DNA from: a virus
Virus genome (UHGV): UHGV-1359708
Reading direction: 5' to 3' (one strand)
DNA: 11,777 nucleotides
In this document: one piece after another, positions 1,431 to 11,777 of the stretch
How positions within the stretch are numbered: position 1 is the first letter of the stretch
Layout of the letters: each line of letters opens with the position of its first letter
Notes under the pieces: generated by a model
The model's input: the letters and a program-made list of their open reading frames with translations, nothing else
Databases searched by the model: none
What the model was told of the DNA's origin: nothing
Translations under genes and position numbers: made by a program

Positions 1431-2383
1431 TGGCGGATTCGAATCTCAATGTGCCGGTAATCATTCAGGCTACACGGCTCGACACATCAGTCCTTCCACG
1501 CAATATCTTCTCGCAGTCGTATCTGCTTTACGTTATCGCACAGGGCACTGATGTTGGTAACGTGGCTAACAAAGCCAACGAGGCCGGACAGGGCGCTTAT
1601 GATGCACAGGTCAGGAACGATGAGCAGGATGTCACCCTTGCAGACCATGAATCCAGAATTGAAGCTGCTGAAGCAACTCTCATCAATCATGAACATAGAA
1701 TTGCAGCAGCGGAAAGCACTCTTGCAGATCATGAAACAAGGATTACGGCTGCTGAAACAGAGCTGGCTGATCACGAGACGCGAATTGCTGCCAATGAATC
1801 TGAGTTAGCAAACCATGATGCGCGCATAACTCAGAATACAACCGATATCGACGCACTTGATACCAGGCTCACAGCGGCAGAGGGAAGTATTTCGACGCTA
1901 CAAAGCACAGTTGGTGATCACTCAACAAGAATATCTGCGCTTGAGTATGCCACCACGCGCAAGAAATCAGAGGTTGTTTACTCAGGGGTATCGGTAACAA
2001 TTCCGACATCGCCTACCAACCTTGTTAGCCTGCTGAAAACGCTCACGCCGTCATCCGGTGAGTTGGCACCATTCTTCGACACCGTTAACAACAAGATGGT
2101 TGTGTTCAACGAGAACAAAACCTTGTTCTTCAAGCTGTCGATCGTCGGGACGTGGCCCAGCGGAACCGCCAACAGGTCAATGCAGCTAACATTTTCCGGT
2201 TCTGTTCCTGACACACTGGTAAGCAGTCGTAATGCGGCGACAACAACCGACAACATCCTGTTAGCTACGTTCTTCAGTGTGGATAAAGACGGCTTTCTTG
2301 CCACAAATGGCAGTACGTTAACCATTCAGTCGAATGGTGCGGCGTTTACTGCCACAACCATCAAGATAATCGCGGAGCAGTAA
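1430..2383 (+). CDS. Tail needle (cell-envelope-penetrating needle), P22 gp26 family, with C-terminal extension
   Basis: The N-terminus [43 protein letters not shown]...[26 protein letters not shown] closely matches the conserved gp26 N-terminal domain as I remember it. It is followed by two-heptad repeats ADHExRIxAAExxL typical of the trimeric coiled coil. At 317 aa it is longer than P22 gp26 (about 233 aa), with a C-terminal Ser/Thr/Asn-rich segment of about 140 aa consistent with a knob domain as in Sf6/HK620-type needles. Confidence 0.9.
1640..1807 (+). repeat. Four tandem 42-nt (14-codon) repeats encoding [A/I][D/N]HExRIxAAExxL inside the tail-needle gene, plus a degenerate fifth copy downstream
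   Basis: Direct reading of codons: [14 protein letters not shown] / [14 protein letters not shown] / [14 protein letters not shown] / [14 protein letters not shown], then [10 protein letters not shown]. The repeats are conserved at protein level with many synonymous and near-synonymous nucleotide differences. Confidence 0.8.
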
Positions 2384-2838
2384 TGATTCAGTTCAAACCA
2401 ACGCGAAACATCGACCTGATCGAAGCAGTAGGAAATCACCCTGACATTATCGCCGGGAGCAACAACGGTGATGGATACGACTACAAACCTGATTGCCGTT
2501 ACTTTGAGGTGAACGTGCACGGGCAGTTCGGCGGCATTGTTTACTATCAGGAGATTCAGCCGCTGACATTCGATTGCCACGCCATGTACCTGCCAGAGAT
2601 TCGCGGCTTCAGCAAGGAAATCGGGCTTGAGTTCTGGCGATACATTCTGACTAACACCACTGTTCAGTGTGTCACATCGTTCGCTGCGCGCAAATTCCGC
2701 CACGGGCAGATGTACTGCGCAATGATTGGACTTAAGCGTGTAGGAACCATCAAGAAATACTTCAAAGGCGTGGATGACGTGACATTTTACAGTGCTACAC
2801 GCGAAGAACTAATCGAATTCCTGAATCACTGGAGATAG
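2383..2838 (+). CDS. Small virion-assembly protein in the position of P22 gp14 (function unknown)
   Basis: 151-aa ORF, translationally coupled to the needle gene by a TAATG overlap at 2381-2385. It lies between the tail needle and the first ejection-protein gene, which is the position of gene 14 in P22-like genomes. Assignment is by synteny only. Confidence 0.55.
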   Translation: MIQFKPTRNIDLIEAVGNHPDIIAGSNNGDGYDYKPDCRYFEVNVHGQFGGIVYYQEIQPLTFDCHAMYLPEIRGFSKEIGLEFWRYILTNTTVQCVTSFAARKFRHGQMYCAMIGLKRVGTIKKYFKGVDDVTFYSATREELIEFLNHWR

Positions 2839-2840
2839 CC

Positions 2841-3536
2841 ATGTTATATGCATTTAAGCTGGGCAGAAAACTGCGCGGCGAGGAACCTTATTGCCCTGAA
2901 AAAGGCGGGAAAGGTGGCAGTTCTGATAAAAGCGCAAAGTATGCAGCAGAAGCTCAGAAGTATGCCGCAGACCTGCAAAATCAGCAGTTCAACACCATCA
3001 TGAACAACCTGAAACCGTTTACTCCTCTGGCTGAGAAGTATGTCGGCAGCCTCGAGAACTTATCGTCTCTGGAGGGGCAAGGTCAGGCACTTAACCAGTA
3101 TTACAACTCTCAGCAGTACAAAGATCTTGCTGGTCAGGCTCGCTATCAGAGTCTGGCTGCAGCGGAAGCAACAGGTGGATTGGGTTCCACTGCAACCGGT
3201 AATCAGTTAGCAACAATCGCACCAACGCTTGGTCAGCAGTGGCTGTCTGGTCAGATGAACAACTACCAGAATCTGGCAAATATTGGTCTTGGCGCACTGC
3301 AAGGTCAGGCAAACGCCGGGCAGACATATGCCAACAACATGAGTCAGATTTCGCAGCAAAGTGCGGCTCTTGCCGCTGCTAATGCCAATAAACCATCAGG
3401 TCTTCAGACAGCAATTAGCGGCGGAGCTTCAGGGGCTATGACTGGCGCTGCTCTTGGCTCTATTGTTCCCGGACTTGGCACTGGATTAGGTGCGGCAATT
3501 GGCGGCGGACTTGGCCTGCTTGGATCGTTGTTTTAA
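2841..3536 (+). CDS. Ejection (internal virion) protein, P22 gp7-like
   Basis: 231 aa (P22 gp7 is about 229 aa). GGAGA Shine-Dalgarno at 2830-2834. Gln/Asn/Ala-rich body with a Gly-rich hydrophobic C-terminal tail (GAAIGGGLGLLGSLF) compatible with membrane insertion. It is the first of three consecutive genes matching the P22 7-20-16 ejection-protein order. Confidence 0.8.
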   Translation: MLYAFKLGRKLRGEEPYCPEKGGKGGSSDKSAKYAAEAQKYAADLQNQQFNTIMNNLKPFTPLAEKYVGSLENLSSLEGQGQALNQYYNSQQYKDLAGQARYQSLAAAEATGGLGSTATGNQLATIAPTLGQQWLSGQMNNYQNLANIGLGALQGQANAGQTYANNMSQISQQSAALAAANANKPSGLQTAISGGASGAMTGAALGSIVPGLGTGLGAAIGGGLGLLGSLF

Positions 3537-3545
3537 GGGGTAATC

Positions 3546-4934
3546 ATGGCTACTTGGCAAGGAACAAATGGCGGATTGTTGGCTGGTATCGGTGGCGTCA
3601 ACTCAAACGCTCCGAGCGTAAATGACATCGGCAATACGCTTCAGCTTATCAGGCAGAACAATGATATTGAGCGTTCAGGCGCTAACAATGTTGGGCTGAC
3701 TGCTTTGCAAGGCCTTTCAGGTATTGCGGGGGTGTTTCAGCAGGAAAAGCAGGCTCAGCGGCAGAAAGAATTTCAGCAGGCATACGCTAATGCTTATGCG
3801 TCTGGTGATCGCGGTGCTTTGCGTCAGTTGGCTACTCAATATCCAGACCAGATTGAATCTGTTCGTAAAGGCATGGGATTCATTGATGAAGACCAGCGCA
3901 ATTCTATCGGCACCTTAGCGGCTGGCGCCCGTCTTGCATCATCGTCTCCAGAAGCAATGCAATCATGGCTGCAAAACAACGCCAAGGAACTGACTCGCGT
4001 CGGTGTTGACCCTAATAACGTTGCTCAGATGTATCAGCAGAACCCTTCAGGATTTGGTGAGTTTGTTGATCACCTTGGAATGGCTGCTCTTGGTCCGATT
4101 GATTACTTCAATGTTCAGGACAAGATGGCTGGTCGTGAGATTGATCGCGGAAAACTTGCAGAGACAATCCGCAGCAATCAGGCTGGCGAGGCGCTAACAG
4201 CACGAGGCCAGAACATCACGATGCGCGGTCAGGACTTATCTGCTTCTACTGCGCGACGCGGGCAGGATTTGGCAATGCAGCGAGCGTCAACAAGAGGAAC
4301 TGCTGGGAATGATGAGCGTACAGTTCAGTTATCAGATGGCAGAACTGTAACGGTAGGCGGGAAACTTCACGGCGCTGGGGCTAATGCGTTCTACGAAGGC
4401 ATCGACAACGAGGGGAATATGGTTCGCGTTCCTGCCAGTTCAATCGCAGCGCCTGCAACATCGTCTGCATCAGCACAAAACTATGCCATGAAGAAGGATA
4501 TCGACGCGATCGCAAATGCAGACGCTTCTGCTCTCGATTTCATGACAGGAATGACAGGCGGTGCAGGTAATCCAGCAATTGGTGCTGATGTTCGCAGCCG
4601 ATTAACAGGAAAAGAGCAGCGCCAGTTATATAACTCAGCACAACGTATTCAGGGCAGAATGCAGAATCAGGGTGTGGCGGCAGCAAGGGATATGGGTGCC
4701 AGTGGTATTAACACCGTTGCAGAAGCGAAGATGTATTTTCAGGGGATGCCGCAGGTTGACTATTCAAGCCCGGAGGCTATGCAGCAGTCGATTCGTGAGA
4801 TTCAGGAATACACCAACAATTACAATCAACAATATAACGTTGATGTTGGTAAATCTCAGCGGCAGAAATCTCAACCTGCACAGGTATCACAGCCAGCAGC
4901 CAGCAGTAACTTTTCTTCACTATGGGGTGATTAA
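3546..4934 (+). CDS. Ejection (internal virion) protein, P22 gp20-like
   Basis: 462 aa (P22 gp20 is about 471 aa). AAGGGG Shine-Dalgarno at 3536-3541. Second gene of the ejection-protein triplet; Gly/Ala/Gln-rich composition typical of these proteins. Confidence 0.8.
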
Positions 4935-6931
4935 TGGCTAAAGCATGGAAAGATGTTATCGCCTCTCCACAGTATCAGGCGTTAGCACCAGAACAAAAAG
5001 CGCAGGCTCAGGAGCAATACTTCAATGAAGTCGTGGCCCCGCAAGCCGGAGAAAATGCAGAGCAGGCTAAGCAAGCTTTCTATGCTGCCTATCCATTGCC
5101 ATCTGTGCAGCCAGTGGAGACACAGCAACCAGTAGCACAGCAACAACCACAGCAAAGTGGATTTATGTCTGATCTTGGTGAAGCAGTGAAAGAGACTGGT
5201 CGCGGACTGGTGCAGGCTGGCGTGAACGTGGCAAACATACCTGCATCAGTTGCCGATGCTGTAACAAGCGCGGCGGCTTGGGCTGGCGGTAAACTCGGCA
5301 TTAGCGATGGTACATATCAACCAGCGCCACGAGTAACAACGCAGGGATTAGAGCAGGACTTTGGCCTTCAGCAAGGCGCGCTGACTCCACAAACTACAGA
5401 GGGAAGGGTATTTGCTGAAGCATTGCCTTACCTCACTCCTGCTGGCGTTGAGAGGGCGGCTGCACAGGCACCAACACTTGCTGGTCGAATTGCTCAGGGG
5501 GCAACTCGCCTTCTAGCAGAAAACGCAGTTGGATCACTTGCTGCAAATAGTGCGAAAGATGATGCGGAAGCACTCGCCACTGATTTAGGCGTTGGTGTAC
5601 TTGCTGGCGGTGCTATTAACGCTGCCGGACGTGGATTAGGTGCTGCTTATCGTGGCGTTCGTGGTGCTATTGCGCCAGAAGCGCAGCAGGCTATCAGATT
5701 TGCAGAGCGTGAAGGAGTTCCTCTGCACACCACAGACCTGTTACAACCAACTTCCCGCGTCGGAAAAATGGCGCAGACTACAGCAGAAAATATCCCTCTG
5801 GCTGGCACAAGCGGAATGAGAGCAACGCAACAGGAAGCGAGAAGTCAGTTGGTGCAGAGATTTGCTGATAAATTTGGTGAGTATGATCCAGCGGTTGTTA
5901 TTGACAGCCTTAAAGCGAAAACATCAGGAATTCGTCGTGCCGCCGGTAATCGACTGGAGCAGGTTCAGAATGCTATGGCTGGAGTAAACATTCAGCCTGC
6001 ACGAGCAATTCAGCAGATTGATACTGAGATATCTAATCTGCAGAAGCTTGGTAAGGTGGCTGATAACGAGACAATTTCAAAACTTCAGTCCTATCGTGAT
6101 GAGCTTGTTCGCAATGCTGGTCCTGATGGTCCGGTAAATCTGGATTTGAAGCAATTAAGCGATCTGCGCAGCCAGTTCAGAATGGACGTGAAGGGTGAGC
6201 GACCAGTGTTACCAAACCGTTCCGATGCTGCCATTCAGCGCGTTTACAAGGCAATGACCGACGATATCAATGGTGCCATTGGTCAGAATCTTGGCAACGA
6301 TACTCTCCGTAAATATCAGCAGGCCAATGCCGTCTACGCTGACGAAGCGGCTAAACTAAAGAATACCAGGCTGAAGAATGTTCTCATGAAAGGCGATCTG
6401 ACGCCGGAAGTTGTCAACAACATGCTATTCAGCAAGAACAAATCGGAAATTAAGACTCTGTATAACTCAGTTGGTCGTGTTGGCAGGGCGCAAATGCGCA
6501 ATGGCATTATTGGAAAGGCGATGGAGAAATCTGGAGGATCCCCTGACCAGTTCCTTCGGCAGCTTAACATCCTGCAAAACCAGACTGGCATCACATTTAA
6601 GGGGCAGGACGCTGCTTATCTGAAAGGATTGAAAAACTACCTGCAATCCACGCAGCAGGCTGCAAAAGCGGCAGTAACAACACCAACAGGGCAGCAAACC
6701 ATCCCGTTCATTATCGGGTATGGGACGGCAATGAACCCTGCAACAACTGGCGCAGCAGTAAGCTACGGACTTCTTACTCGCGCCTATGAGAGCGAGCCAT
6801 TCAGAAATGCAATGCTCAGAATGGCAAGCACACCACGCGGATCAACAGCGTTTGAGAAAGCCATGCAGCAGGCGCAAAAGGCCATTAACGCCCTGACTCA
6901 GGGGGCCAAGTCTGATGCGTTGTCAGAATAG
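4934..6931 (+). CDS. Ejection (internal virion) protein, P22 gp16-like
   Basis: 665 aa. TAATG stop/start overlap with the preceding gene at 4932-4936. Third and largest of the ejection-protein triplet (P22 gp16 is about 609 aa). Gln/Pro-rich low-complexity segment near the N-terminus (QQPVAQQQPQQSG) and Ala/Gly-rich central region. Confidence 0.8.
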   Translation: MAKAWKDVIASPQYQALAPEQKAQAQEQYFNEVVAPQAGENAEQAKQAFYAAYPLPSVQPVETQQPVAQQQPQQSGFMSDLGEAVKETGRGLVQAGVNVANIPASVADAVTSAAAWAGGKLGISDGTYQPAPRVTTQGLEQDFGLQQGALTPQTTEGRVFAEALPYLTPAGVERAAAQAPTLAGRIAQGATRLLAENAVGSLAANSAKDDAEALATDLGVGVLAGGAINAAGRGLGAAYRGVRGAIAPEAQQAIRFAEREGVPLHTTDLLQPTSRVGKMAQTTAENIPLAGTSGMRATQQEARSQLVQRFADKFGEYDPAVVIDSLKAKTSGIRRAAGNRLEQVQNAMAGVNIQPARAIQQIDTEISNLQKLGKVADNETISKLQSYRDELVRNAGPDGPVNLDLKQLSDLRSQFRMDVKGERPVLPNRSDAAIQRVYKAMTDDINGAIGQNLGNDTLRKYQQANAVYADEAAKLKNTRLKNVLMKGDLTPEVVNNMLFSKNKSEIKTLYNSVGRVGRAQMRNGIIGKAMEKSGGSPDQFLRQLNILQNQTGITFKGQDAAYLKGLKNYLQSTQQAAKAAVTTPTGQQTIPFIIGYGTAMNPATTGAAVSYGLLTRAYESEPFRNAMLRMASTPRGSTAFEKAMQQAQKAINALTQGAKSDALSE

Positions 6932-7040
6932 CTTCGCAAACACCAGGAACGTGCAAAAACCAACTATGTAGAACGCAATGTTCAACAGATCTCTTTGCAT
7001 AGACTCACCTCATAATTAACAAATCATAACTGACATTAGT

Positions 7041-7076
7041 GCAATGCCGGACAGGTTGCATCTTGTCCGGAATTGC
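7041..7076 (+). promoter_or_regulatory. Interrupted inverted repeat / RNA hairpin upstream of the tailspike gene
   Basis: GCAAT-g-CCGGACA (7041-7053), 10-nt loop, TGTCCGG-a-ATTGC (7064-7076). There is no downstream T-tract, so it is not a classical intrinsic terminator. A third TCCGGA copy at 7081-7086 overlaps the tailspike Shine-Dalgarno (GGAG at 7084-7087), so alternative pairing could occlude the ribosome-binding site. Confidence 0.4.
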
Positions 7077-7095
7077 TACGTCCGGAGCAAATTAA

Positions 7096-9276
7096 ATGAC
7101 AGACATTATAACTAATGTTGTAATTGGGATGCCTTCGCAACTCTTCACTATGGCTCGTTCTTTTAAAGCCGTAGCCAATGGCAAAATTTATATCGGTAAA
7201 ATTGACACGGACCCGGTAAATCCTGAAAACCAAATTCAGGTTTATGTGGAGAACGAAGACGGATCTCACATTCCCGTTTCGCAACCAATAATTATTAACG
7301 CTGCTGGCTACCCTGTATATAACGGACAGATTGCTAAGTTCGTAACCGTGCAAGGGCATTCTATGGCTGTGTACGATGCATATGGATCACAGCAGTTCAA
7401 TTTCCCTAATGTGCTGAAGTACGATCCAGATCAGTTATCAGTCATGTTAAATCTATCTTGGCTTCGAGGAATGAATGGATTTTTAGGTGGTGAGGTTTAT
7501 CCTAATAAAATTGGAATTGATGCAAAAATAGGAGACTTAATTCCCGAAGGTGTAAGATTCGTTAGGCTTGATGGCGCCCTTATGATGATGAGCACACCAT
7601 TATCATCACCATTGACAATTACCAGTTATGACTCAACTGTAATTAATGATAATATTGAACTTTACCCAATATCATTTTTTAATGAGGTTAATTCTGGTTG
7701 GAAAATTGCACAAAATGACGCTCAACTTAGTAGACTACTTCCACTATCTGGAAATATCGGGATCGCTTACTCTCCCGTAACTGTAGAAGGTATATTTAAT
7801 ATTCAGGGAGACATCCTCATAAAGCCGTTATTGCCAAAAGTGACGGTAGATTCCAGACAATTATGGCTCAGATCCCCACGGACATGGAACGAATCAAATC
7901 AAGAGTTTGACTATACTCCATATGATATACGCATTGTCGGTAATTTCTTGTTTGATTTTTATCGGCAGAATGCTTCATTTGACCCAGGGGTTGGTTTGGC
8001 CATGCAATCTGCAGGTACACTTGAGCTTTCAGGGTGTGAATTGCAGGGGGCATGGAATAGCAACGTAACGATGGATTATGGGAGATGGGTTCTTGCCGAT
8101 AATCTGTACTCACATGATTGTGGTCGTGGGAAAATTCAAGATCCAGATGGCAGCAACCGAACTGGCATGGCGATCATTGTTAATGACCCCACAGAGGCGC
8201 ACGTCCATCATATCCGTTGCAGAAACACTTGGGCATCATCTTTGTTCTTCTCATCACGTCGCCCAAACCGTACGCTTAATCTTATGATTCACGATGTGAG
8301 CATTAATACCTCTGGTGGTAACGGTTTGCGTATTCAGTCAGACGACCTTGTGAACGGTTATGGTGATGGCACAGCTATCACAAGAGTTAACATAAACGCC
8401 GTTACAATCAAAAACTGTGAAAGCCACGGTCTTCGAGGGAATTTCCGTAATGGAGTAGTTACTGGACTATATGTAGAAAGTTCGAACGCAGGTGTCGCAA
8501 TTGAAGGAGCTAGTGACGTATCCTACGATAACGTTGTTATTCGTAACTGCTCGCAGGGTTTGTTATGCCGCTTCTATCCGGTAGAAAACACAAGGATGCG
8601 TTTTTCTAACTTCTTGATATCAGGTTGCTCTGCTGAAGCTGTTTATTTTTTGAGAAACTCAGCCAATACCACGACTAATCTTGCCGACATCGAGTTTGAC
8701 GGCATTACGATACACGCACTTGCAAATGGTGCAAAAGGGTTTGTTTTCAACGGTGGGCCTGCTGCGGTGCCAACCACAGATTTAACATTAAAAAATGTTC
8801 GCATAGTAGGCGCTTACCCTAACACAGAAAATGGGCATTATATCGTCATCATTAACTGCCGCCACATAGAGGTTGATAATGTGAACTTGAGGGGGTGCAA
8901 TGGAAGCGCAGAATCTTATTTACAAGCACTAGCCACACAGAGTGTTATTGTTAACAGGCTGGTAGCTGTGCAACCATTCGGGACAGTTAACAGGCCAATA
9001 TATACAAATGGTAGTGGTTCTGACGCTATAGTGAACATTACGAACTGTGTGGCCCCTGACACAACCACAGGTAGTATTGGGTACAACCCTGTACCAACAA
9101 AACGTTATGAGGCTAACAACCAGTTTGCCAATAGCTCACAACCTCAGCAGTATCCATTTACCAATTCCGGTGCGTTACGCGGTGGAGACGTAAACACCCT
9201 ATCTACTAAGGATATTGCTAACATAGTGGCAACACTAGTTAACGACATTAGCAATGGCAAATTTGTTGTAAGGTGA
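7096..9276 (+). CDS. Tailspike protein: P22-type head-binding N-terminal domain fused to a divergent parallel beta-helix receptor-binding/depolymerase domain
   Basis: The first roughly 114 residues ([50 protein letters not shown]...[29 protein letters not shown].....NVLKYDPDQ) match the conserved P22 gp9 head-binding domain as I recall it. The remaining roughly 610 residues are unrelated to P22 and show repetitive N/G/V/I-rich beta-helix-like strands (for example [63 protein letters not shown]). GGAG Shine-Dalgarno at 7084-7087. Confidence 0.9.
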
Positions 9277-9278
9277 CT

Positions 9279-10640
9279 ATGATGGCGCGTAGAAACGCGC
9301 TATCATCCTGTACTTTCTTTAAAGATCGGGTAAAAATAGTCATTTTTACATACAATATTATGAATATTTATGAATCATTTTTTACTTATGTGCTACCTGC
9401 GTTGTATGCCATAACATTAATATATTTAAGTGCCGTGTCATTCAAAAAACATGGCGTGTCATTCAAATCTGTTGGGATGTTATTCCTTGTTTTTACTCAT
9501 TTTTTTGGGTATATATCGCTTCCGTTTAGAGTTGGGGCAAAAGTTAGTTCTGCAGAATATATGCCGTATCAATATATAAATGATGTGTCTACGTTGTCGT
9601 TTATTGGTATAGTTTTGTTTTATGTATTCTCTCATACAGCGGCAGGAAGAAATAAAATAACTTTTTCTGATAAATATTTTATTGGTAGCCCAAAATTATT
9701 TGTAAGAACAACGTTGTTTTTAAGTTTTGTTGGAATGATGGCTTTTTATGCTATAAACGGCATATCTTTTAATTCTGATGATTATGCTTTAAAGCTTGGC
9801 GGAAATGCTGGTAGTGGTGTTATTATAATGATAATGTCATCTTTTGTTTCTGCTGTTATAGTGTATGCAATTACATCTGACGATAAGTATGTGTTCGTTA
9901 AATCAATTATAATGTCATTGTTATTTGGGATGGCATATTATGTGCTTATTGGTGGCTCAAGAAATGTAATGTTTTCCGCAATGTTTATTGTTGCTCTTAT
10001 TTGTCACTCTAGAGGCCTAATTGGCATATTGAAGTTAATATGCATAGGCTCTGCGTGCTTAATTCTAATTGGTATAATGGCTATAGTGAGATACTCAGAT
10101 GTTGATATTTCAGAGTCTGGCTCTCTGTTTGGCATTATAGTAAGATATTTAGCTGATAGCGTATCTCCTATCAATTATCAGAGTATAGCTGTTAAATACT
10201 TTAGCAATGATCGCAATGTTGGTGGTATCTATTATTTCTTTACTCAATTTTCAGGGTTTATCCCAAGATTCATATGGCCTGACAAACCAATTGTCACAAT
10301 GAATAGCTCATATTACTTTACCGTGAGTGCTCTTGGTCTTAGCAATGGATTGAATATGGCATCAACTTTGCTTGGGTCATCGCTTGTTATTTTCGGAAAG
10401 TATTTTTTCTGGTGCTCATATGTTATCTCAGGCGTTGTTTTTAGATTTCTTGATAAAATCATATTGATGAGGAGAGTTGGCGTAATACAAATAGCTGCAC
10501 TTATGACAATGCCTTTTTCATTTTTTATGGCAAGGGAGAGCCTTGAATTCTTTTTATTTATTTTCTTAAAAAATATAATAACTGTATCATTTGTATATTT
10601 TTCATATAAGGCAATATACTATATATTGCCTAAAAAATAA
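9279..10640 (+). CDS. Polytopic inner-membrane protein, tentatively a Wzy-like polysaccharide (O-antigen) polymerase or other surface-glycan modifying enzyme; start uncertain (alternative ATG at 9360)
   Basis: Long ORF in conspicuously AT-rich DNA immediately after the tailspike stop (TGA at 9274-9276). AAGGTG at 9270-9275 precedes ATG 9279/9282; the first hydrophobic helix begins right after the in-frame ATG at 9360 (MNIYESFFTYVLPALYAITLIYL). By eye there are at least 10 hydrophobic helix-length segments separated by short basic loops, plus one larger hydrophilic loop (RYSDVDISESGSLFGIIVRYLADSVSPINYQSIAVKYFSNDRNVGG). Size, Phe/Ile/Tyr-rich composition, low G+C and location next to a tailspike resemble phage- or host-encoded Wzy proteins. 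There is no acyltransferase-3 type N-terminal motif and no accompanying gtrA/gtrB. Confidence 0.7.
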   Translation: MMARRNALSSCTFFKDRVKIVIFTYNIMNIYESFFTYVLPALYAITLIYLSAVSFKKHGVSFKSVGMLFLVFTHFFGYISLPFRVGAKVSSAEYMPYQYINDVSTLSFIGIVLFYVFSHTAAGRNKITFSDKYFIGSPKLFVRTTLFLSFVGMMAFYAINGISFNSDDYALKLGGNAGSGVIIMIMSSFVSAVIVYAITSDDKYVFVKSIIMSLLFGMAYYVLIGGSRNVMFSAMFIVALICHSRGLIGILKLICIGSACLILIGIMAIVRYSDVDISESGSLFGIIVRYLADSVSPINYQSIAVKYFSNDRNVGGIYYFFTQFSGFIPRFIWPDKPIVTMNSSYYFTVSALGLSNGLNMASTLLGSSLVIFGKYFFWCSYVISGVVFRFLDKIILMRRVGVIQIAALMTMPFSFFMARESLEFFLFIFLKNIITVSFVYFSYKAIYYILPKK

Positions 10641-10682
10641 AAAACCGCACGCGATAAGCGTGCGGAAGTTCTCATTTATTTT
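10632..10682. terminator. Bidirectional rho-independent terminator between the convergent cargo genes
   Basis: GC-rich hairpin CCGCACGC (10645-10652), loop GATAA, GCGTGCGG (10658-10665). It is flanked by an A-run on the 5' side (10632-10644), which gives a U-tract for the minus-strand transcript, and by a T-rich tail AAGTTCTCATTTATTTT on the 3' side. It lies 5 nt after the + strand stop (10640) and 7 nt after the minus-strand stop (10672-10674). Confidence 0.75.
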
Positions 10683-10989
10683 GCATGTATAGTAACTTAT
10701 TATCTTTTGTGCATTTTACTAATATTTTTTCCTCGCCCCTTGAAGCTATGAACTGGCTATGGCTGTTGAAATCTATGTTATGACCAGCAAAGTCTAGCGC
10801 TATCATTTTGAGGTTTGATATGCATGATGAATATTCTCTTGAGAAAGAAGATCTTAATTTAAAGTTGTCACCTGAAATACTTTGCGTATCATGCCCTTTT
10901 GAGCTTGATGACATAGGATAAAAAGAAATAACAATTATTGTTGTAATGATTATTAATATAATTATATTTAAGCATTTATCCTTATTCAT
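10672..10989 (-). CDS. Small signal-anchored or secreted protein of unknown function (about 105 aa from ATG 10989; 118 aa if the upstream ATG at 11028 is used)
   Basis: Minus-strand ORF in the same AT-rich block. From Met-14 the protein reads MNKDKCLNIIILIIITTIIVISFYPMSSSSKGHD..., that is, a short basic N-terminus, one roughly 20-residue hydrophobic segment, a Ser-rich linker, then a hydrophilic body of about 70 aa. The ATG at 10989 has an AAGG 13 nt upstream; the ATG at 11028 has no recognisable Shine-Dalgarno. No lipobox. Ends at the bidirectional terminator. Confidence 0.5.
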   Translation of the reverse strand: MNKDKCLNIIILIIITTIIVISFYPMSSSSKGHDTQSISGDNFKLRSSFSREYSSCISNLKMIALDFAGHNIDFNSHSQFIASRGEEKILVKCTKDNKLLYMQNK

Positions 10990-11047
10990 TTCCGTTTGCC
11001 TTGTAATGATGTGGTAAATTCGCAACATGGTTGTGCATAAAATTCAG

Positions 11048-11061: not shown

Positions 11062-11180
11062 AACAAAAATAACGATCGATATGTCTATTCATGCATAATT
11101 TCTCTAGTTTGTTAGTGACATAAAACCAAGTATGTAACAAGATGTTTCCTGTAATTGCTGCAACGCGCTGTTATTGTTCT

Positions 11181-11777
11181 TTAATCAACCTTCCCATCAA
11201 GCCAGTCTGCCCACCACTGCATCATTTCTCTGCGTTTGTCGAGATACTGAGCATGGTTGTATATTCCACGCACAGATCCGCCGTTGGCATGTGCCAGTTG
11301 CACTTCAATAGCGTCAGCAGGCCATTCGTGCTCGTTCATAATTGTGCTGAATTCATGCCTGAATCCGTGACCGCTTTCCAGACCCTCATAGCCGATTTGT
11401 TTGATCACAAGCAGTACAGCGTTCTCGCAAATTGGCTTCTTCTTATCGTTGCGCCCGGCAAAAACAAACTCTGATACTGGTTTGGTGATTGAGCTTAGCG
11501 TAGTGAGAAGTTCAACTACCTGGTCTGACATAGGAACCACATGAATTTTGCGTCCCTTCATCACACTGGCGTCAATGGTGATAATCCTGTTTTCAAAATC
11601 GACGTTCTTCCATAGCATGGAACGAAGCTCTTTTGTTCTGAGGGCTGTGTAGCGTAAAACTTTGGTCGCAATGAGCGATACGATGCTTCCTGAAAATGTT
11701 GCCAGTGCTTTGTTAAATGCCGAGATCTGGTCGGCAGGTAAAAACGGGAAGTTCTTCTTGCGGTATCCCTTCATGGC
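11181..11777 (-). CDS. int: Tyrosine integrase, C-terminal catalytic domain (partial; the N-terminal part lies beyond the window end)
   Basis: The minus-strand ORF runs off the window edge; the ATG at 11774 listed in the ORF track is internal. It contains the hallmark catalytic elements of tyrosine recombinases in order: Arg in ...MKGRKIHVVPMSDQ..., H-x-x-R in ...HGFRHEFST..., and the nucleophile Tyr in ...VRGIYNHAQYLDKRREMMQWWADWLDGKVD (stop at 11181-11183). The C-terminal YNHAQYL..RR.MMQWWAD.LD tail resembles P4/CP4-57-type integrases as I recall them. Confidence 0.85.
   Translation of the reverse strand, partial: AMKGYRKKNFPFLPADQISAFNKALATFSGSIVSLIATKVLRYTALRTKELRSMLWKNVDFENRIITIDASVMKGRKIHVVPMSDQVVELLTTLSSITKPVSEFVFAGRNDKKKPICENAVLLVIKQIGYEGLESGHGFRHEFSTIMNEHEWPADAIEVQLAHANGGSVRGIYNHAQYLDKRREMMQWWADWLDGKVD

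What the first reader, a model, noticed from the sequence alone, without database searches (positions are those of the whole stretch)
9279..10640. Wzy-like polytopic membrane protein encoded directly after, and possibly translationally coupled to, the tailspike
Seen in sequence: the tailspike stop TGA (9274-9276) sits inside AAGGTGACTATGATGG, so an SD-like AAGGTG and the ATG codons at 9279/9282 overlap the tailspike terminus; an in-frame ATG at 9360 starts directly at the first hydrophobic helix. The protein has many helix-length hydrophobic segments and at least one extended hydrophilic loop rich in Arg/Tyr/Asp, an architecture characteristic of O-antigen or exopolysaccharide polymerases (Wzy) and O-antigen-ligase-like proteins. 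If it is made from the late transcript together with the tailspike, the timing would differ from classic conversion genes expressed in the lysogen. Which start is used, and whether an internal promoter exists, is unresolved.
Basis: partly seen in the sequence, partly recalled or inferred. Interest (0 to 1): 0.75.

Follow-up and report, generated by a model that had tools for sequence, protein, structure and literature searches.

The report
Prophage-borne Wzy polysaccharide polymerase gene
The gene after the tailspike of this P22-like E. coli prophage is a real Wzy-type sugar-chain polymerase that probably re-links a host surface polysaccharide, a known kind of phage "serotype conversion" gene, but it most likely starts 81 bases later than proposed and is not coupled to the tailspike.

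Summary
The sequence observation is correct. The tailspike stop (9274-9276), AAGGTG, ATGs at 9279/9282 and 9360, and a polytopic membrane ORF ending at 10640 are all there.

The protein matches Pfam WzyE (PF06899) at 68 bits against a cut-off of 25. It has about 11 predicted TM helices and a periplasmic loop of about 100 aa carrying invariant Arg/Lys. Its polymorphism is 11 synonymous to 4 nonsynonymous sites. RefSeq already names it "WzyE family oligosaccharide polymerase" in 27 of 5426 complete E. coli genomes.

The coupling idea is not supported. ATG 9279/9282 lie in the stem of a terminator-like hairpin (9279-9306, -22 kcal/mol), and hairpins follow the tailspike stop in three related phage contexts. 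All relatives begin at or just after the residue encoded by ATG 9360.

New context:
- The gene always travels with this tailspike's receptor-binding domain.
- It has phage-borne relatives in two other phage backbones.
- Its non-phage relatives all sit in wzy-wzx-GT4-Alg14/13 clusters.
- 24 of 27 carrier genomes, mostly O8 and apparently ST410 (my inference), have exactly such a cluster between galF and gnd, with a 32%-identical host Wzy.

Likely role: an alternative polymerase for that K-antigen-like unit, that is, lysogenic conversion. It is a new member of a known kind, of moderate interest.

The parts
7096..7440 (+). Tailspike N-terminal P22-type head-binding domain (virion attachment)
   Evidence: Pfam PF09008 Head_binding, 213.7 bits, residues 1-113. 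About 93% nucleotide identity to Sf6 and related phages.
7450..9276 (+). Tailspike receptor-binding / presumed depolymerase domain, inherited together with the wzy gene
   Evidence: 70% identical to the L004 tailspike, which has a different N-terminal anchor (PF18668). 68-69% identical to the C-terminal part of G7C gp66, to Shigella phage MK-13 and to Enterobacter phage fGh-Ecl02. Full-length copies occur in exactly the 27 E. coli genomes that carry the wzy gene.
9279..9306 (+). Terminator-like hairpin directly after the tailspike stop, followed by a T-rich tail to about 9320. It contains ATG 9279 and ATG 9282.
   Evidence: 12-bp stem with 6 G-C pairs. Folding of 9262-9325 gives dG -22.2 kcal/mol, z -4.5, with 0 of 200 shuffles as stable. 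Analogous hairpins follow the tailspike stop in L004, the CobraSix group and G7C.
9360..10640 (+). wzy-like gene, most likely coding region: 426 aa, WzyE-family (PF06899) repeat-unit polymerase. The longest ORF starts at 9279 (453 aa).
10645..10665 (.). G+C-rich hairpin between the convergent wzy gene and the minus-strand ORF; a likely bidirectional terminator
   Evidence: 8-bp stem with 7 G-C pairs. TTTTTTATTT follows on the minus strand; on the plus strand the hairpin is preceded by an A-run and followed by T-rich sequence.
10672..10989 (-). Small orphan ORF (105 aa; 118 aa if started at 11028) with one N-terminal hydrophobic helix. Candidate partner or inhibitor, but weakly supported as a gene.
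   Evidence: Annotated as hypothetical protein by PGAP. No Pfam or PHROG family. No homologs outside its own cluster. 6 nonsynonymous and 0 synonymous polymorphic sites. No similarity to epsilon15 gp22.
11181..11777 (-). 3' part of the prophage integrase IntS (argW-targeting), marking the prophage end; it defines the tailspike-int moron slot
   Evidence: Pfam Phage_integrase 136.4 bits. 95-96% nucleotide identity to the Sf6, HK620 and CUS-3 int genes. intS lies next to tRNA-Arg in strain 124.

Best explanation
ORF 9360-10640 encodes a Wzy-type polymerase of undecaprenyl-diphosphate-linked repeat units. It belongs to the WzyE/PF06899 branch of the SEDS-like superfamily. It is carried as a low-GC moron in the tailspike-integrase slot of a P22-like (Sf6-like) E. 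coli prophage.

Shown:
- It belongs to this family, and it is under purifying selection.
- It is inherited as one unit with this tailspike's receptor-binding domain.
- Every non-phage relative examined lies in a wzy-wzx-(498 aa)-GT4-Alg14-Alg13 cluster.
- Most carrier genomes hold such a cluster between galF and gnd, with their own 32%-identical Wzy.

Inferred:
- In the periplasm, the phage enzyme takes the repeat unit made by that host cluster. This is the K-antigen or K40-like polymer of O8 strains.
- It joins the units through a different linkage from the host Wzy.
- The lysogen then displays a polymer that the linked tailspike no longer binds or cleaves. This would be lysogenic conversion and superinfection exclusion, as with epsilon15 and D3.

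Translation most likely starts at ATG 9360. The hairpin at 9279-9306 is the terminator of the late (tailspike) transcript, so the gene probably needs its own promoter, which I could not identify, or terminator read-through.
For: Family:
- PF06899 68.2 bits against 25.
- tblastn finds bona fide WzyE at 24% identity, E 5e-9.
- About 11 TM helices and a large loop, with invariant R201, R244, Y245, R303, W306, K309, R392 and E393.

Real gene: 11 synonymous against 4 nonsynonymous sites, and intact in 28 of 30 copies.

Moron: 32% GC against 50%, in the same slot as Sf6 oac.

Substrate inference:
- Relatives P0004-P0008 and the E. coli host Wzy all lie in syntenic wzy-wzx-GT4-Alg14-Alg13 clusters.
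- The host 496-aa protein is 46% identical to the Vibrio 498-aa protein.
- The phage Wzy is 32% identical to the host Wzy, E 6e-38.
- 24 of 27 carrier genomes have the host cluster, against 67 of 5426 genomes overall.
- The O8 galF-gnd wzx/wzy genes are said to form a capsule (PMC4732683).

Linkage to the tailspike:
- The same 27 genomes, at 30 places, carry both.
- In L004 the pair is 70% (receptor-binding domain) and 59% (Wzy) identical, behind a different virion anchor.
- CobraSix-type siphoviruses place the gene directly after their tailspike.

Start codon and terminator.
Against: - No biochemical or genetic data exist. The linkage made, and even the substrate, are inferred from homology and co-occurrence.
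- The co-occurrence statistic is inflated by clonality, since most carriers look like one O8 lineage.
- Three carriers lack the host cluster: N273 has an O131-like locus, and E92/E94 have an O180 locus. In E92/E94 the gene has a 10-nt 5' deletion.
- No convincing sigma-70 promoter lies between 9306 and 9360, and there is no Shine-Dalgarno before ATG 9360.
- No credible inhibitor of the host polymerase was found. How the phage enzyme would prevail over the intact host Wzy is therefore unexplained.
- The specificity of the tailspike domain is unknown.
Confidence: 0.6

Rival explanations
1. First reader's model. The protein is made from ATG 9279/9282 (453 aa) by termination-reinitiation at the tailspike stop. 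It is therefore produced with the tailspike from the late transcript during lytic growth, not in the lysogen.
For: - AAGG lies 5 nt upstream of ATG 9279, and the stop and start are 2 nt apart.
- A ribosome terminating at 9274-9276 would melt the hairpin.
- PGAP calls 9279 in most genomes.
- The frame is open from the tailspike end to the conserved ATG in both the window and L004; my rough estimate is about 0.14 and 0.09 by chance.
- ATG 9360 has no Shine-Dalgarno, and no promoter is evident.
- Q-type late antitermination (established for P22 and lambda) could read through the hairpin.
Against: - The extension is not conserved beyond the hairpin-encoded residues.
- L004 has no ATG and no SD at the equivalent position, and its AGA TAA replaces AGG TGA.
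- The CobraSix group has an in-frame stop, a canonical terminator and a conserved 95-nt intergenic region.
- Five K/R residues in the extension would sit on the periplasmic side of the predicted N-out topology (inference).
- PGAP itself calls 9360 in isolate J31 without any sequence change there.
- A lysis-only polymerase has no obvious benefit. The gene is also kept intact in degraded prophages that have lost most late genes.
Confidence: 0.2
2. It acts on enterobacterial common antigen, as a second WzyE, or on the serotype O antigen, rather than on the galF-gnd K-antigen-like unit.
For: - The only Pfam and NCBIfam matches are the WzyE models.
- ECA units are also GlcNAc-initiated and contain a uronic acid (textbook knowledge).
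- Every E. coli makes ECA, so this could explain persistence of the prophage in the O131-like and O180 hosts.
Against: - The score against the WzyE equivalog model is 70.8, against a cut-off of 510.
- Identity to true WzyE is only 24% over 60% of the protein, against 35-39% to capsule-cluster Wzys.
- The O8 O antigen is ABC-transporter-dependent and needs no Wzy (PMC4732683).
- All six non-phage contexts examined belong to the GT4-Alg14-Alg13 cluster type.
Confidence: 0.12
3. Inert cargo: a hitch-hiking or decaying gene of defective prophages with no present function.
For: - E92/E94 have a 5' deletion.
- No promoter or RBS is evident.
Against: - 11 synonymous against 4 nonsynonymous sites over 1281 nt.
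- The reading frame is intact in 28 of 30 copies.
- Relatives of 55-59% identity are kept in two other phage lineages in the same position.
Confidence: 0.08

Closest known systems
Salmonella phage epsilon15 conversion module (gp21 beta-polymerase and gp22 alpha-polymerase inhibitor)
   Same: A temperate podovirus carries a polytopic O-unit polymerase gene immediately next to its tailspike gene, separated from it by a terminator. The expected logic is the same: change the inter-unit linkage of the very polymer the tailspike attacks.
   Different: - gp21 is an 'O-antigen ligase family' protein with no detectable similarity to this protein (hhalign probability 0.4%).
- gp21 is convergent to the tailspike and co-transcribed with a 66-aa, 2-TM inhibitor. 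Here the gene is co-directional with the tailspike, and no credible inhibitor is present.
Pseudomonas phage D3 (iap, wzy-beta, oac)
   Same: A phage Wzy replaces the host polymerase's linkage. The Iap peptide blocks the host Wzy (PMC12004945).
   Different: - A different Wzy lineage and a different host.
- D3 needs Iap, and no Iap-like peptide was identified here.
- The predicted target here is a K-antigen-like unit in strains whose O antigen is ABC-transporter-made.
Acinetobacter baumannii prophage-encoded Wzy (K127, KL58 derivatives)
   Same: A prophage wzy outside the K locus determines how K units are joined, as judged from the titles and abstracts of PMC9241936 and PMC13228068. This is the closest analogy to a capsule-type target.
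   Different: A different genus and Wzy family. No linkage to a tailspike receptor-binding domain was found in what I read of those papers (abstracts only).
WzyE, the ECA polymerase of Enterobacterales
   Same: The same Pfam family (PF06899), similar length and a polytopic architecture. It is assigned to the SEDS superfamily (PMC10030265).
   Different: Not an orthologue: NF002820 scores 70.8 against a cut-off of 510, and identity is 24%. It is phage-borne, not in the wec operon.
E. coli O8:K40 his-region K40 cluster (Amor & Whitfield 1997; Amor et al. 1999, J Bacteriol 181:772, cited)
   Same: From memory, this is a six-gene Wzy-dependent cluster: wzy, wzx, a serine-adding enzyme and three glycosyltransferase genes. 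It lies next to the O8 mannan genes. That matches the host galF-gnd cluster seen in carriers, which is the predicted substrate source.
   Different: I could not read those papers or obtain the K40 sequence, so identity of the host cluster with K40 is not tested. The phage gene is a 32%-identical paralogue of the cluster's own wzy.
Sf6 oac and P22 gtrABC conversion morons
   Same: The same genomic slot, between tailspike and int/att, in P22-like phages (Kapi1 paper). Low GC, and the role is modification of the receptor polysaccharide.
   Different: Those add acetyl or glucosyl side groups. This one would change the backbone polymerisation. The Sf6 oac gene is on the opposite strand, with its own annotated promoter.

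Membership tests
Wzy-type repeat-unit polymerases, WzyE-like branch (Pfam PF06899) | Profile match above the curated gathering score | tested here: met
   68.2 bits against 25, covering residues 37-426 and profile positions 10-406 of 447. The host and Vibrionaceae relatives also match.
Wzy-type repeat-unit polymerases, WzyE-like branch (Pfam PF06899) | Polytopic inner-membrane protein (about 10-14 TM) with a large periplasmic loop carrying conserved basic residues (RXnG-type motifs) | tested here: met
   About 11 helices in the hydropathy scan and in the AlphaFold2 model. Loop 245-350 carries invariant R244, Y245, R303, W306 and K309, with R244-X14-G and R285-X14-G motifs. Topology was predicted only, not mapped.
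Wzy-type repeat-unit polymerases, WzyE-like branch (Pfam PF06899) | SEDS/Wzy-like fold | tested here: inconclusive
   [not shown]
Wzy-type repeat-unit polymerases, WzyE-like branch (Pfam PF06899) | Encoded with wzx and glycosyltransferases of a Wzx/Wzy pathway | tested here: met
   Met for every non-phage relative examined. This copy is phage-borne, but 24 of 27 host genomes supply such a cluster.
Wzy-type repeat-unit polymerases, WzyE-like branch (Pfam PF06899) | Polymerase activity on Und-PP-linked units | not testable with these tools
   Needs genetics or biochemistry.
WzyE proper (ECA polymerase, NCBIfam NF002820 equivalog) | Score at or above the equivalog cut-off, and location in the wec operon | tested here: not met
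   70.8 bits against a cut-off of 510. The gene lies in a prophage between tailspike and intS.
Wzy_C / O-antigen ligase (WaaL) family, PF04932 | Profile match | tested here: not met
   No PF04932 match at E up to 1. No similarity to epsilon15 gp21, which PGAP names as that family.
Phage Wzy-based seroconversion modules (epsilon15 / D3 type) | Temperate phage carries a wzy next to its receptor-binding or att-int region | tested here: met
   The gene lies between tailspike and intS of a P22-like prophage integrated at tRNA-Arg. The position after the tailspike is the same in L004 and the CobraSix group.
Phage Wzy-based seroconversion modules (epsilon15 / D3 type) | Small membrane peptide that inhibits the host polymerase | tested here: inconclusive
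   One small TM ORF (10672-10989, minus strand) is adjacent. It is an orphan, shows 0 synonymous and 6 nonsynonymous polymorphisms, is absent downstream of the L004 gene and is unlike gp22.
Phage Wzy-based seroconversion modules (epsilon15 / D3 type) | Lysogen shows altered inter-unit linkage and resistance to the phage | not testable with these tools
   Requires LPS or K-antigen chemistry and adsorption assays.
   TGA at 9274-9276, ATG at 9279, AAGG at 9270-9273.
   The extension is not conserved and relatives start at M28 or later. A hairpin lies between the genes in all lineages.

The most novel reading that the evidence does not exclude
The tailspike receptor-binding domain and the WzyE-family polymerase form a mobile two-gene cassette, pairing 'recognise and cut the polymer' with 're-link the polymer'. 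The cassette moves between unrelated phage backbones (P22-type anchor, gp66/TSP1-type anchor). In the O8 E. coli lineage that carries it (apparently the ST410 high-risk clone), it remodels a K40-like K-antigen/K-LPS rather than the serotype O antigen, and does so without an Iap-type inhibitor. This would also assign a receptor to the uncharacterised C-terminal domain of G7C gp66.
Probability: 0.35. Interest if true: 0.6.

Novelty: new member of a known kind. Interest (0 to 1): 0.4.

Why it matters
Phage-encoded Wzy polymerases are a classic but sparsely sampled route of serotype conversion (epsilon15, D3, some Acinetobacter prophages).

This one would add three things:
- a WzyE-family example, in P22-like coliphages and in Enterobacter siphoviruses where it is still annotated 'hypothetical';
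- a case where the polymerase is inherited together with the tailspike domain that targets the same polymer;
- a predicted hidden modifier of a capsule-like antigen in O8 E. coli (apparently the multidrug-resistant ST410 lineage), which in-silico serotyping by wzm/wzt does not see.

It matters for phage-therapy host range and for K/O typing. It also offers a natural pair of 32%-identical Wzy enzymes acting on (probably) one substrate, useful for studying linkage specificity.

On annotation, most RefSeq records probably start the gene 27 codons too early.

Tried and rejected
- PDB sequence searches with the protein and with the family profile gave no hits.
- Foldseek against the PDB and BFVD gave nothing significant. 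The afdb50 library was unavailable.
- PHROGs has no family for the Wzy or for the small ORF.
- An alignment-based word-index search added only one relative.
- A GTDB genome scan found none. A metagenome scan found only identical or CobraSix-type copies, so there were no extra lineages to settle the start codon.
- The promoter scan gave chance-level counts (16 found against 15.9 expected) and nothing convincing between 9306 and 9360. Manual inspection found only weak -10/-35 pairs.
- Polymorphism could not test the start codon: there are no substitutions in 9277-9359 among the copies.
- The E92/E94 10-nt deletion takes both candidate starts out of frame with the gene body, so it does not discriminate between them.
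- The K40 papers could not be read, so 'K40-like' rests on memory plus gene order.
- The idea that the small minus-strand ORF is an Iap or gp22-type inhibitor was rejected as unsupported.
- The Kapi1 conversion genes are unrelated; an acyltransferase-like gene occupies that slot.
- Rfam found no RNA family in the window.
Full report
**Observation**

The window is the right end of a P22-like (Sf6-like, Lederbergvirus-type) prophage.
- It holds virion and ejection-protein genes, then a tailspike at 7096-9276 with a P22 head-binding domain (Pfam PF09008, 213.7 bits).
- ORF 9279-10640 follows on the same strand.
- After it come a small minus-strand ORF and the 3' part of intS (Phage_integrase, 136.4 bits; 95-96% identical to the Sf6, HK620 and CUS-3 int genes).
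- GC content drops from about 50% in the phage backbone to 32% in the ORF and 31% in the small ORF. This is typical of a horizontally acquired moron and of wzx/wzy genes.

**What the protein is**

- It matches Pfam WzyE (PF06899) at 68.2 bits against a gathering score of 25, over nearly its whole length.
- The NCBIfam equivalog for the true ECA polymerase scores only 70.8 against a cut-off of 510. It is therefore a member of the family but not an orthologue of WzyE.
- tblastn still detects real WzyE at 24% identity (E 5e-9).
- There is no match to the Wzy_C/WaaL family, and none to epsilon15 gp21.
- Hydropathy and an AlphaFold2 model (pLDDT 82.7, pTM 0.85) give about 11 membrane helices.
- A loop of about 100 residues (245-350 of the 426-aa form) holds the invariant residues R244, Y245, R303, W306 and K309. 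R201 and R392/E393 lie at other predicted periplasmic helix ends.
- Conserved arginines in large periplasmic loops are the hallmark of studied Wzy enzymes (PMC12004945).
- Foldseek found nothing in the PDB or BFVD, and no sequence or profile search found a Wzy or WzyE chain in the PDB copy.
- The gene is under purifying selection: among six other E. coli copies there are 11 synonymous and 4 nonsynonymous polymorphic sites.
- RefSeq (PGAP) already names it 'WzyE family oligosaccharide polymerase' in 27 of 5426 complete E. coli genomes.

**Start codon and coupling**

The two upstream ATGs form the 5' arm of a 12-bp hairpin, 9279-9306. It is followed by CCTGTACTTTCTTT and was flagged as terminator-like. 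It folds at -22.2 kcal/mol (z -4.5), and in the minimum-energy structure the AAGG is also paired.

The same arrangement, tailspike stop then hairpin, occurs in every related context:
- L004: GGCGCGC-AACAA-GCGCGCC, then ATTTTGCTTT.
- Enterobacter phage CobraSix and five IMG/VR relatives: GGCGGC-loop-GCCGCC, then a T-run.
- After the homologous receptor-binding domain of G7C gp66.

Further points bear on the start:
- All family members align from the methionine encoded by ATG 9360, or a few residues later.
- The CobraSix group has an in-frame stop 8 codons upstream and a conserved 95-nt intergenic region.
- The 27-residue extension has no counterpart except where it is encoded by the hairpin itself.
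- The SD-like AAGG is just the tailspike's last Arg codon plus its stop. L004 has AGA TAA and no upstream ATG.
- The extension carries five K/R residues, which would sit on the periplasmic side in the predicted N-out topology (inference).
- PGAP itself is inconsistent. It calls 9279 in most genomes, 9360 in isolate J31 with no sequence difference there, and GTG 9390 in E94.

I put about 70% on 9360.

Several points count against me. ATG 9360 has no Shine-Dalgarno, and I found no convincing promoter. The frame is open through the hairpin in two lineages. A terminating ribosome could melt the hairpin. From memory, wzy genes are known for poor ribosome-binding sites, so the missing SD is not disqualifying.

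**Context that suggests the function**

1. Linkage to the tailspike.
   - The receptor-binding part of the tailspike is found at full length in exactly the same 27 genomes, at 30 places, as the wzy gene.
   - In metagenomic L004 a tailspike with a different N-terminal anchor (PF18668, gp66/TSP1 type) carries a 70%-identical receptor-binding domain. It is followed by a 59%-identical Wzy.
   - In CobraSix-type temperate siphoviruses a 55%-identical gene, annotated hypothetical, follows an unrelated tailspike.
2. Non-phage relatives.
   - Every one I could place lies in a cluster of the form wzy, wzx-like (380-397 aa), an optional 498-aa protein, GT4, Alg14-like and Alg13-like.
   - These were V. 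cholerae, Photobacterium damselae and three metagenomic types, at 33-39% identity. One of the metagenomic contigs ends before the glycosyltransferase genes.
   - In the two genome contexts the cluster sits behind wza-wzb-wzc.
3. The hosts.
   - Strain 124 has exactly such a six-gene cluster between galF and gnd. It lies upstream of an O8-type mannan ABC-transporter cluster.
   - Its 496-aa protein is 46% identical to the Vibrio one.
   - Its own Wzy is 32% identical to the phage Wzy.
   - This host wzy occurs in 67 of 5426 genomes, and 24 of the 27 prophage carriers are among them (hypergeometric 4e-45). Many carriers appear to be one O8 lineage, so the number overstates independence.
   - That lineage is probably ST410. 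I infer this from shared strain names with PMC10786849; it was not MLST-tested.
   - The exceptions are informative but anecdotal. N273 has had galF-his replaced by an O131-like locus. E92/E94 have an O180 locus, and there the phage gene carries a 10-nt 5' deletion.
   - From memory, the gene order matches the K40 cluster of E. coli O8:K40 (Amor & Whitfield; reference seen, paper not readable).

**Mechanism proposed**

- The phage Wzy most likely takes the Und-PP-linked unit made by the host galF-gnd cluster and polymerises it through a different linkage from the host Wzy.
- This would alter the polymer that the co-inherited tailspike recognises.
- That is the logic of epsilon15 and D3. In epsilon15 the tailspike, a terminator, a Wzy-like gp21 and the inhibitor gp22 lie side by side.
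- Family membership, selection, linkage to the tailspike domain, synteny of relatives and co-occurrence with the host cluster are shown. Substrate, linkage change, exclusion phenotype and expression in the lysogen are inferred.
- A gap remains: I found no credible inhibitor of the host polymerase.
- The adjacent small ORF (10672-10989) is an orphan with one hydrophobic helix and no family. Its polymorphism is 0 synonymous to 6 nonsynonymous sites, and it has no counterpart in L004.

**Rivals**

- Coupled late expression from 9279: about 0.2.
- Action on ECA or the O antigen instead: about 0.12. The O8 O antigen is ABC-transporter-made, so it is not a Wzy substrate.
- Inert cargo: about 0.08.

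**Comparison and novelty**

- Phage-encoded Wzy conversion is known from epsilon15, D3 and A. baumannii prophages (PMC9241936, PMC13228068).
- I found no paper in the searchable library describing a Wzy in P22-like coliphages or this tailspike-wzy pairing. The protein has no PHROG family, and its CobraSix homologue is 'hypothetical'.
- The subfamily is small: 127 clusters at E up to 1e-3 among 1.84 billion representatives.
- I file it as a new member of a known kind.
- Its most interesting aspects are the co-transfer with a tailspike receptor-binding domain across phage backbones, and a probable hidden K-antigen modifier in an apparently ST410 clinical lineage.

**Verdict**

The Wzy interpretation is supported. 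The coupling and late-timing speculation is not supported, though not excluded. The finding is of moderate interest.

Noticed in passing
window 10672-10989 (to 11028), minus strand: Small low-GC orphan ORF (105/118 aa, one N-terminal hydrophobic helix) between wzy and intS. It has no family and no homologs outside its own cluster. All 6 polymorphic sites among E. coli copies are nonsynonymous. PGAP annotates it in some genomes and not in others.
   Followed up: partly
window 7450-9276; L021 (G7C gp66) 1501-3300: The tailspike receptor-binding domain is 68-70% identical to the C-terminal part of G7C gp66, to a tailspike of Shigella phage MK-13 and to one of Enterobacter phage fGh-Ecl02. The specificity of gp66 is not known in the papers read. 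The host association here suggests the O8-associated galF-gnd polymer as a candidate receptor.
   Followed up: partly
L013 (E. coli E94) 7080-7102, equivalent to window 9358-9367: A 10-nt deletion between direct repeats TTATGAAT removes ATG 9360 and puts both candidate starts out of frame. It is found in the two O180 strains that lack the host wzy-type cluster. PGAP falls back to GTG 9390.
   Followed up: yes
L012 (E. coli N273) galF-his region: A carrier with the same backbone as the other human O8 carriers has the whole galF-gnd-O8 region replaced by an O131-like sialic-acid O-antigen locus, with wzzB a pseudogene. It still keeps the prophage tailspike and wzy.
   Followed up: partly
L002 (STEC308): STEC306-308 carry two copies of the tailspike-domain and wzy pair. 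One copy lies next to ybhB/bioA with no integrase and only a gene fragment after the wzy.
   Followed up: no
L018 (isolate J31), L001 and L013: RefSeq start calls for the same gene differ: 9279 in most genomes, 9360 in J31, and GTG 9390 in E94. J31 has no sequence difference in 9277-9359.
   Followed up: yes
[not shown]
   Followed up: no
L001 (strain 124) 3100-9700: In strain 124 (an O8 carrier) the prophage is a remnant with several partial late genes. It still keeps the arc/mnt/ant immI-like region, the tailspike, the wzy and intS. The window's own prophage has no immI region between the gene-16-like ORF and the tailspike.
   Followed up: no
L014 (CobraSix) 6880-7000; L023-L027 3860-4000: The CobraSix-type phages share a conserved 95-nt region between the tailspike terminator and the wzy. 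It has promoter-like elements (TTTACT, 16 nt, TACAAT) that are absent from the window.
   Followed up: partly
window 11142-11474, plus strand: A 110-aa ORF antisense to intS, probably spurious.
   Followed up: no
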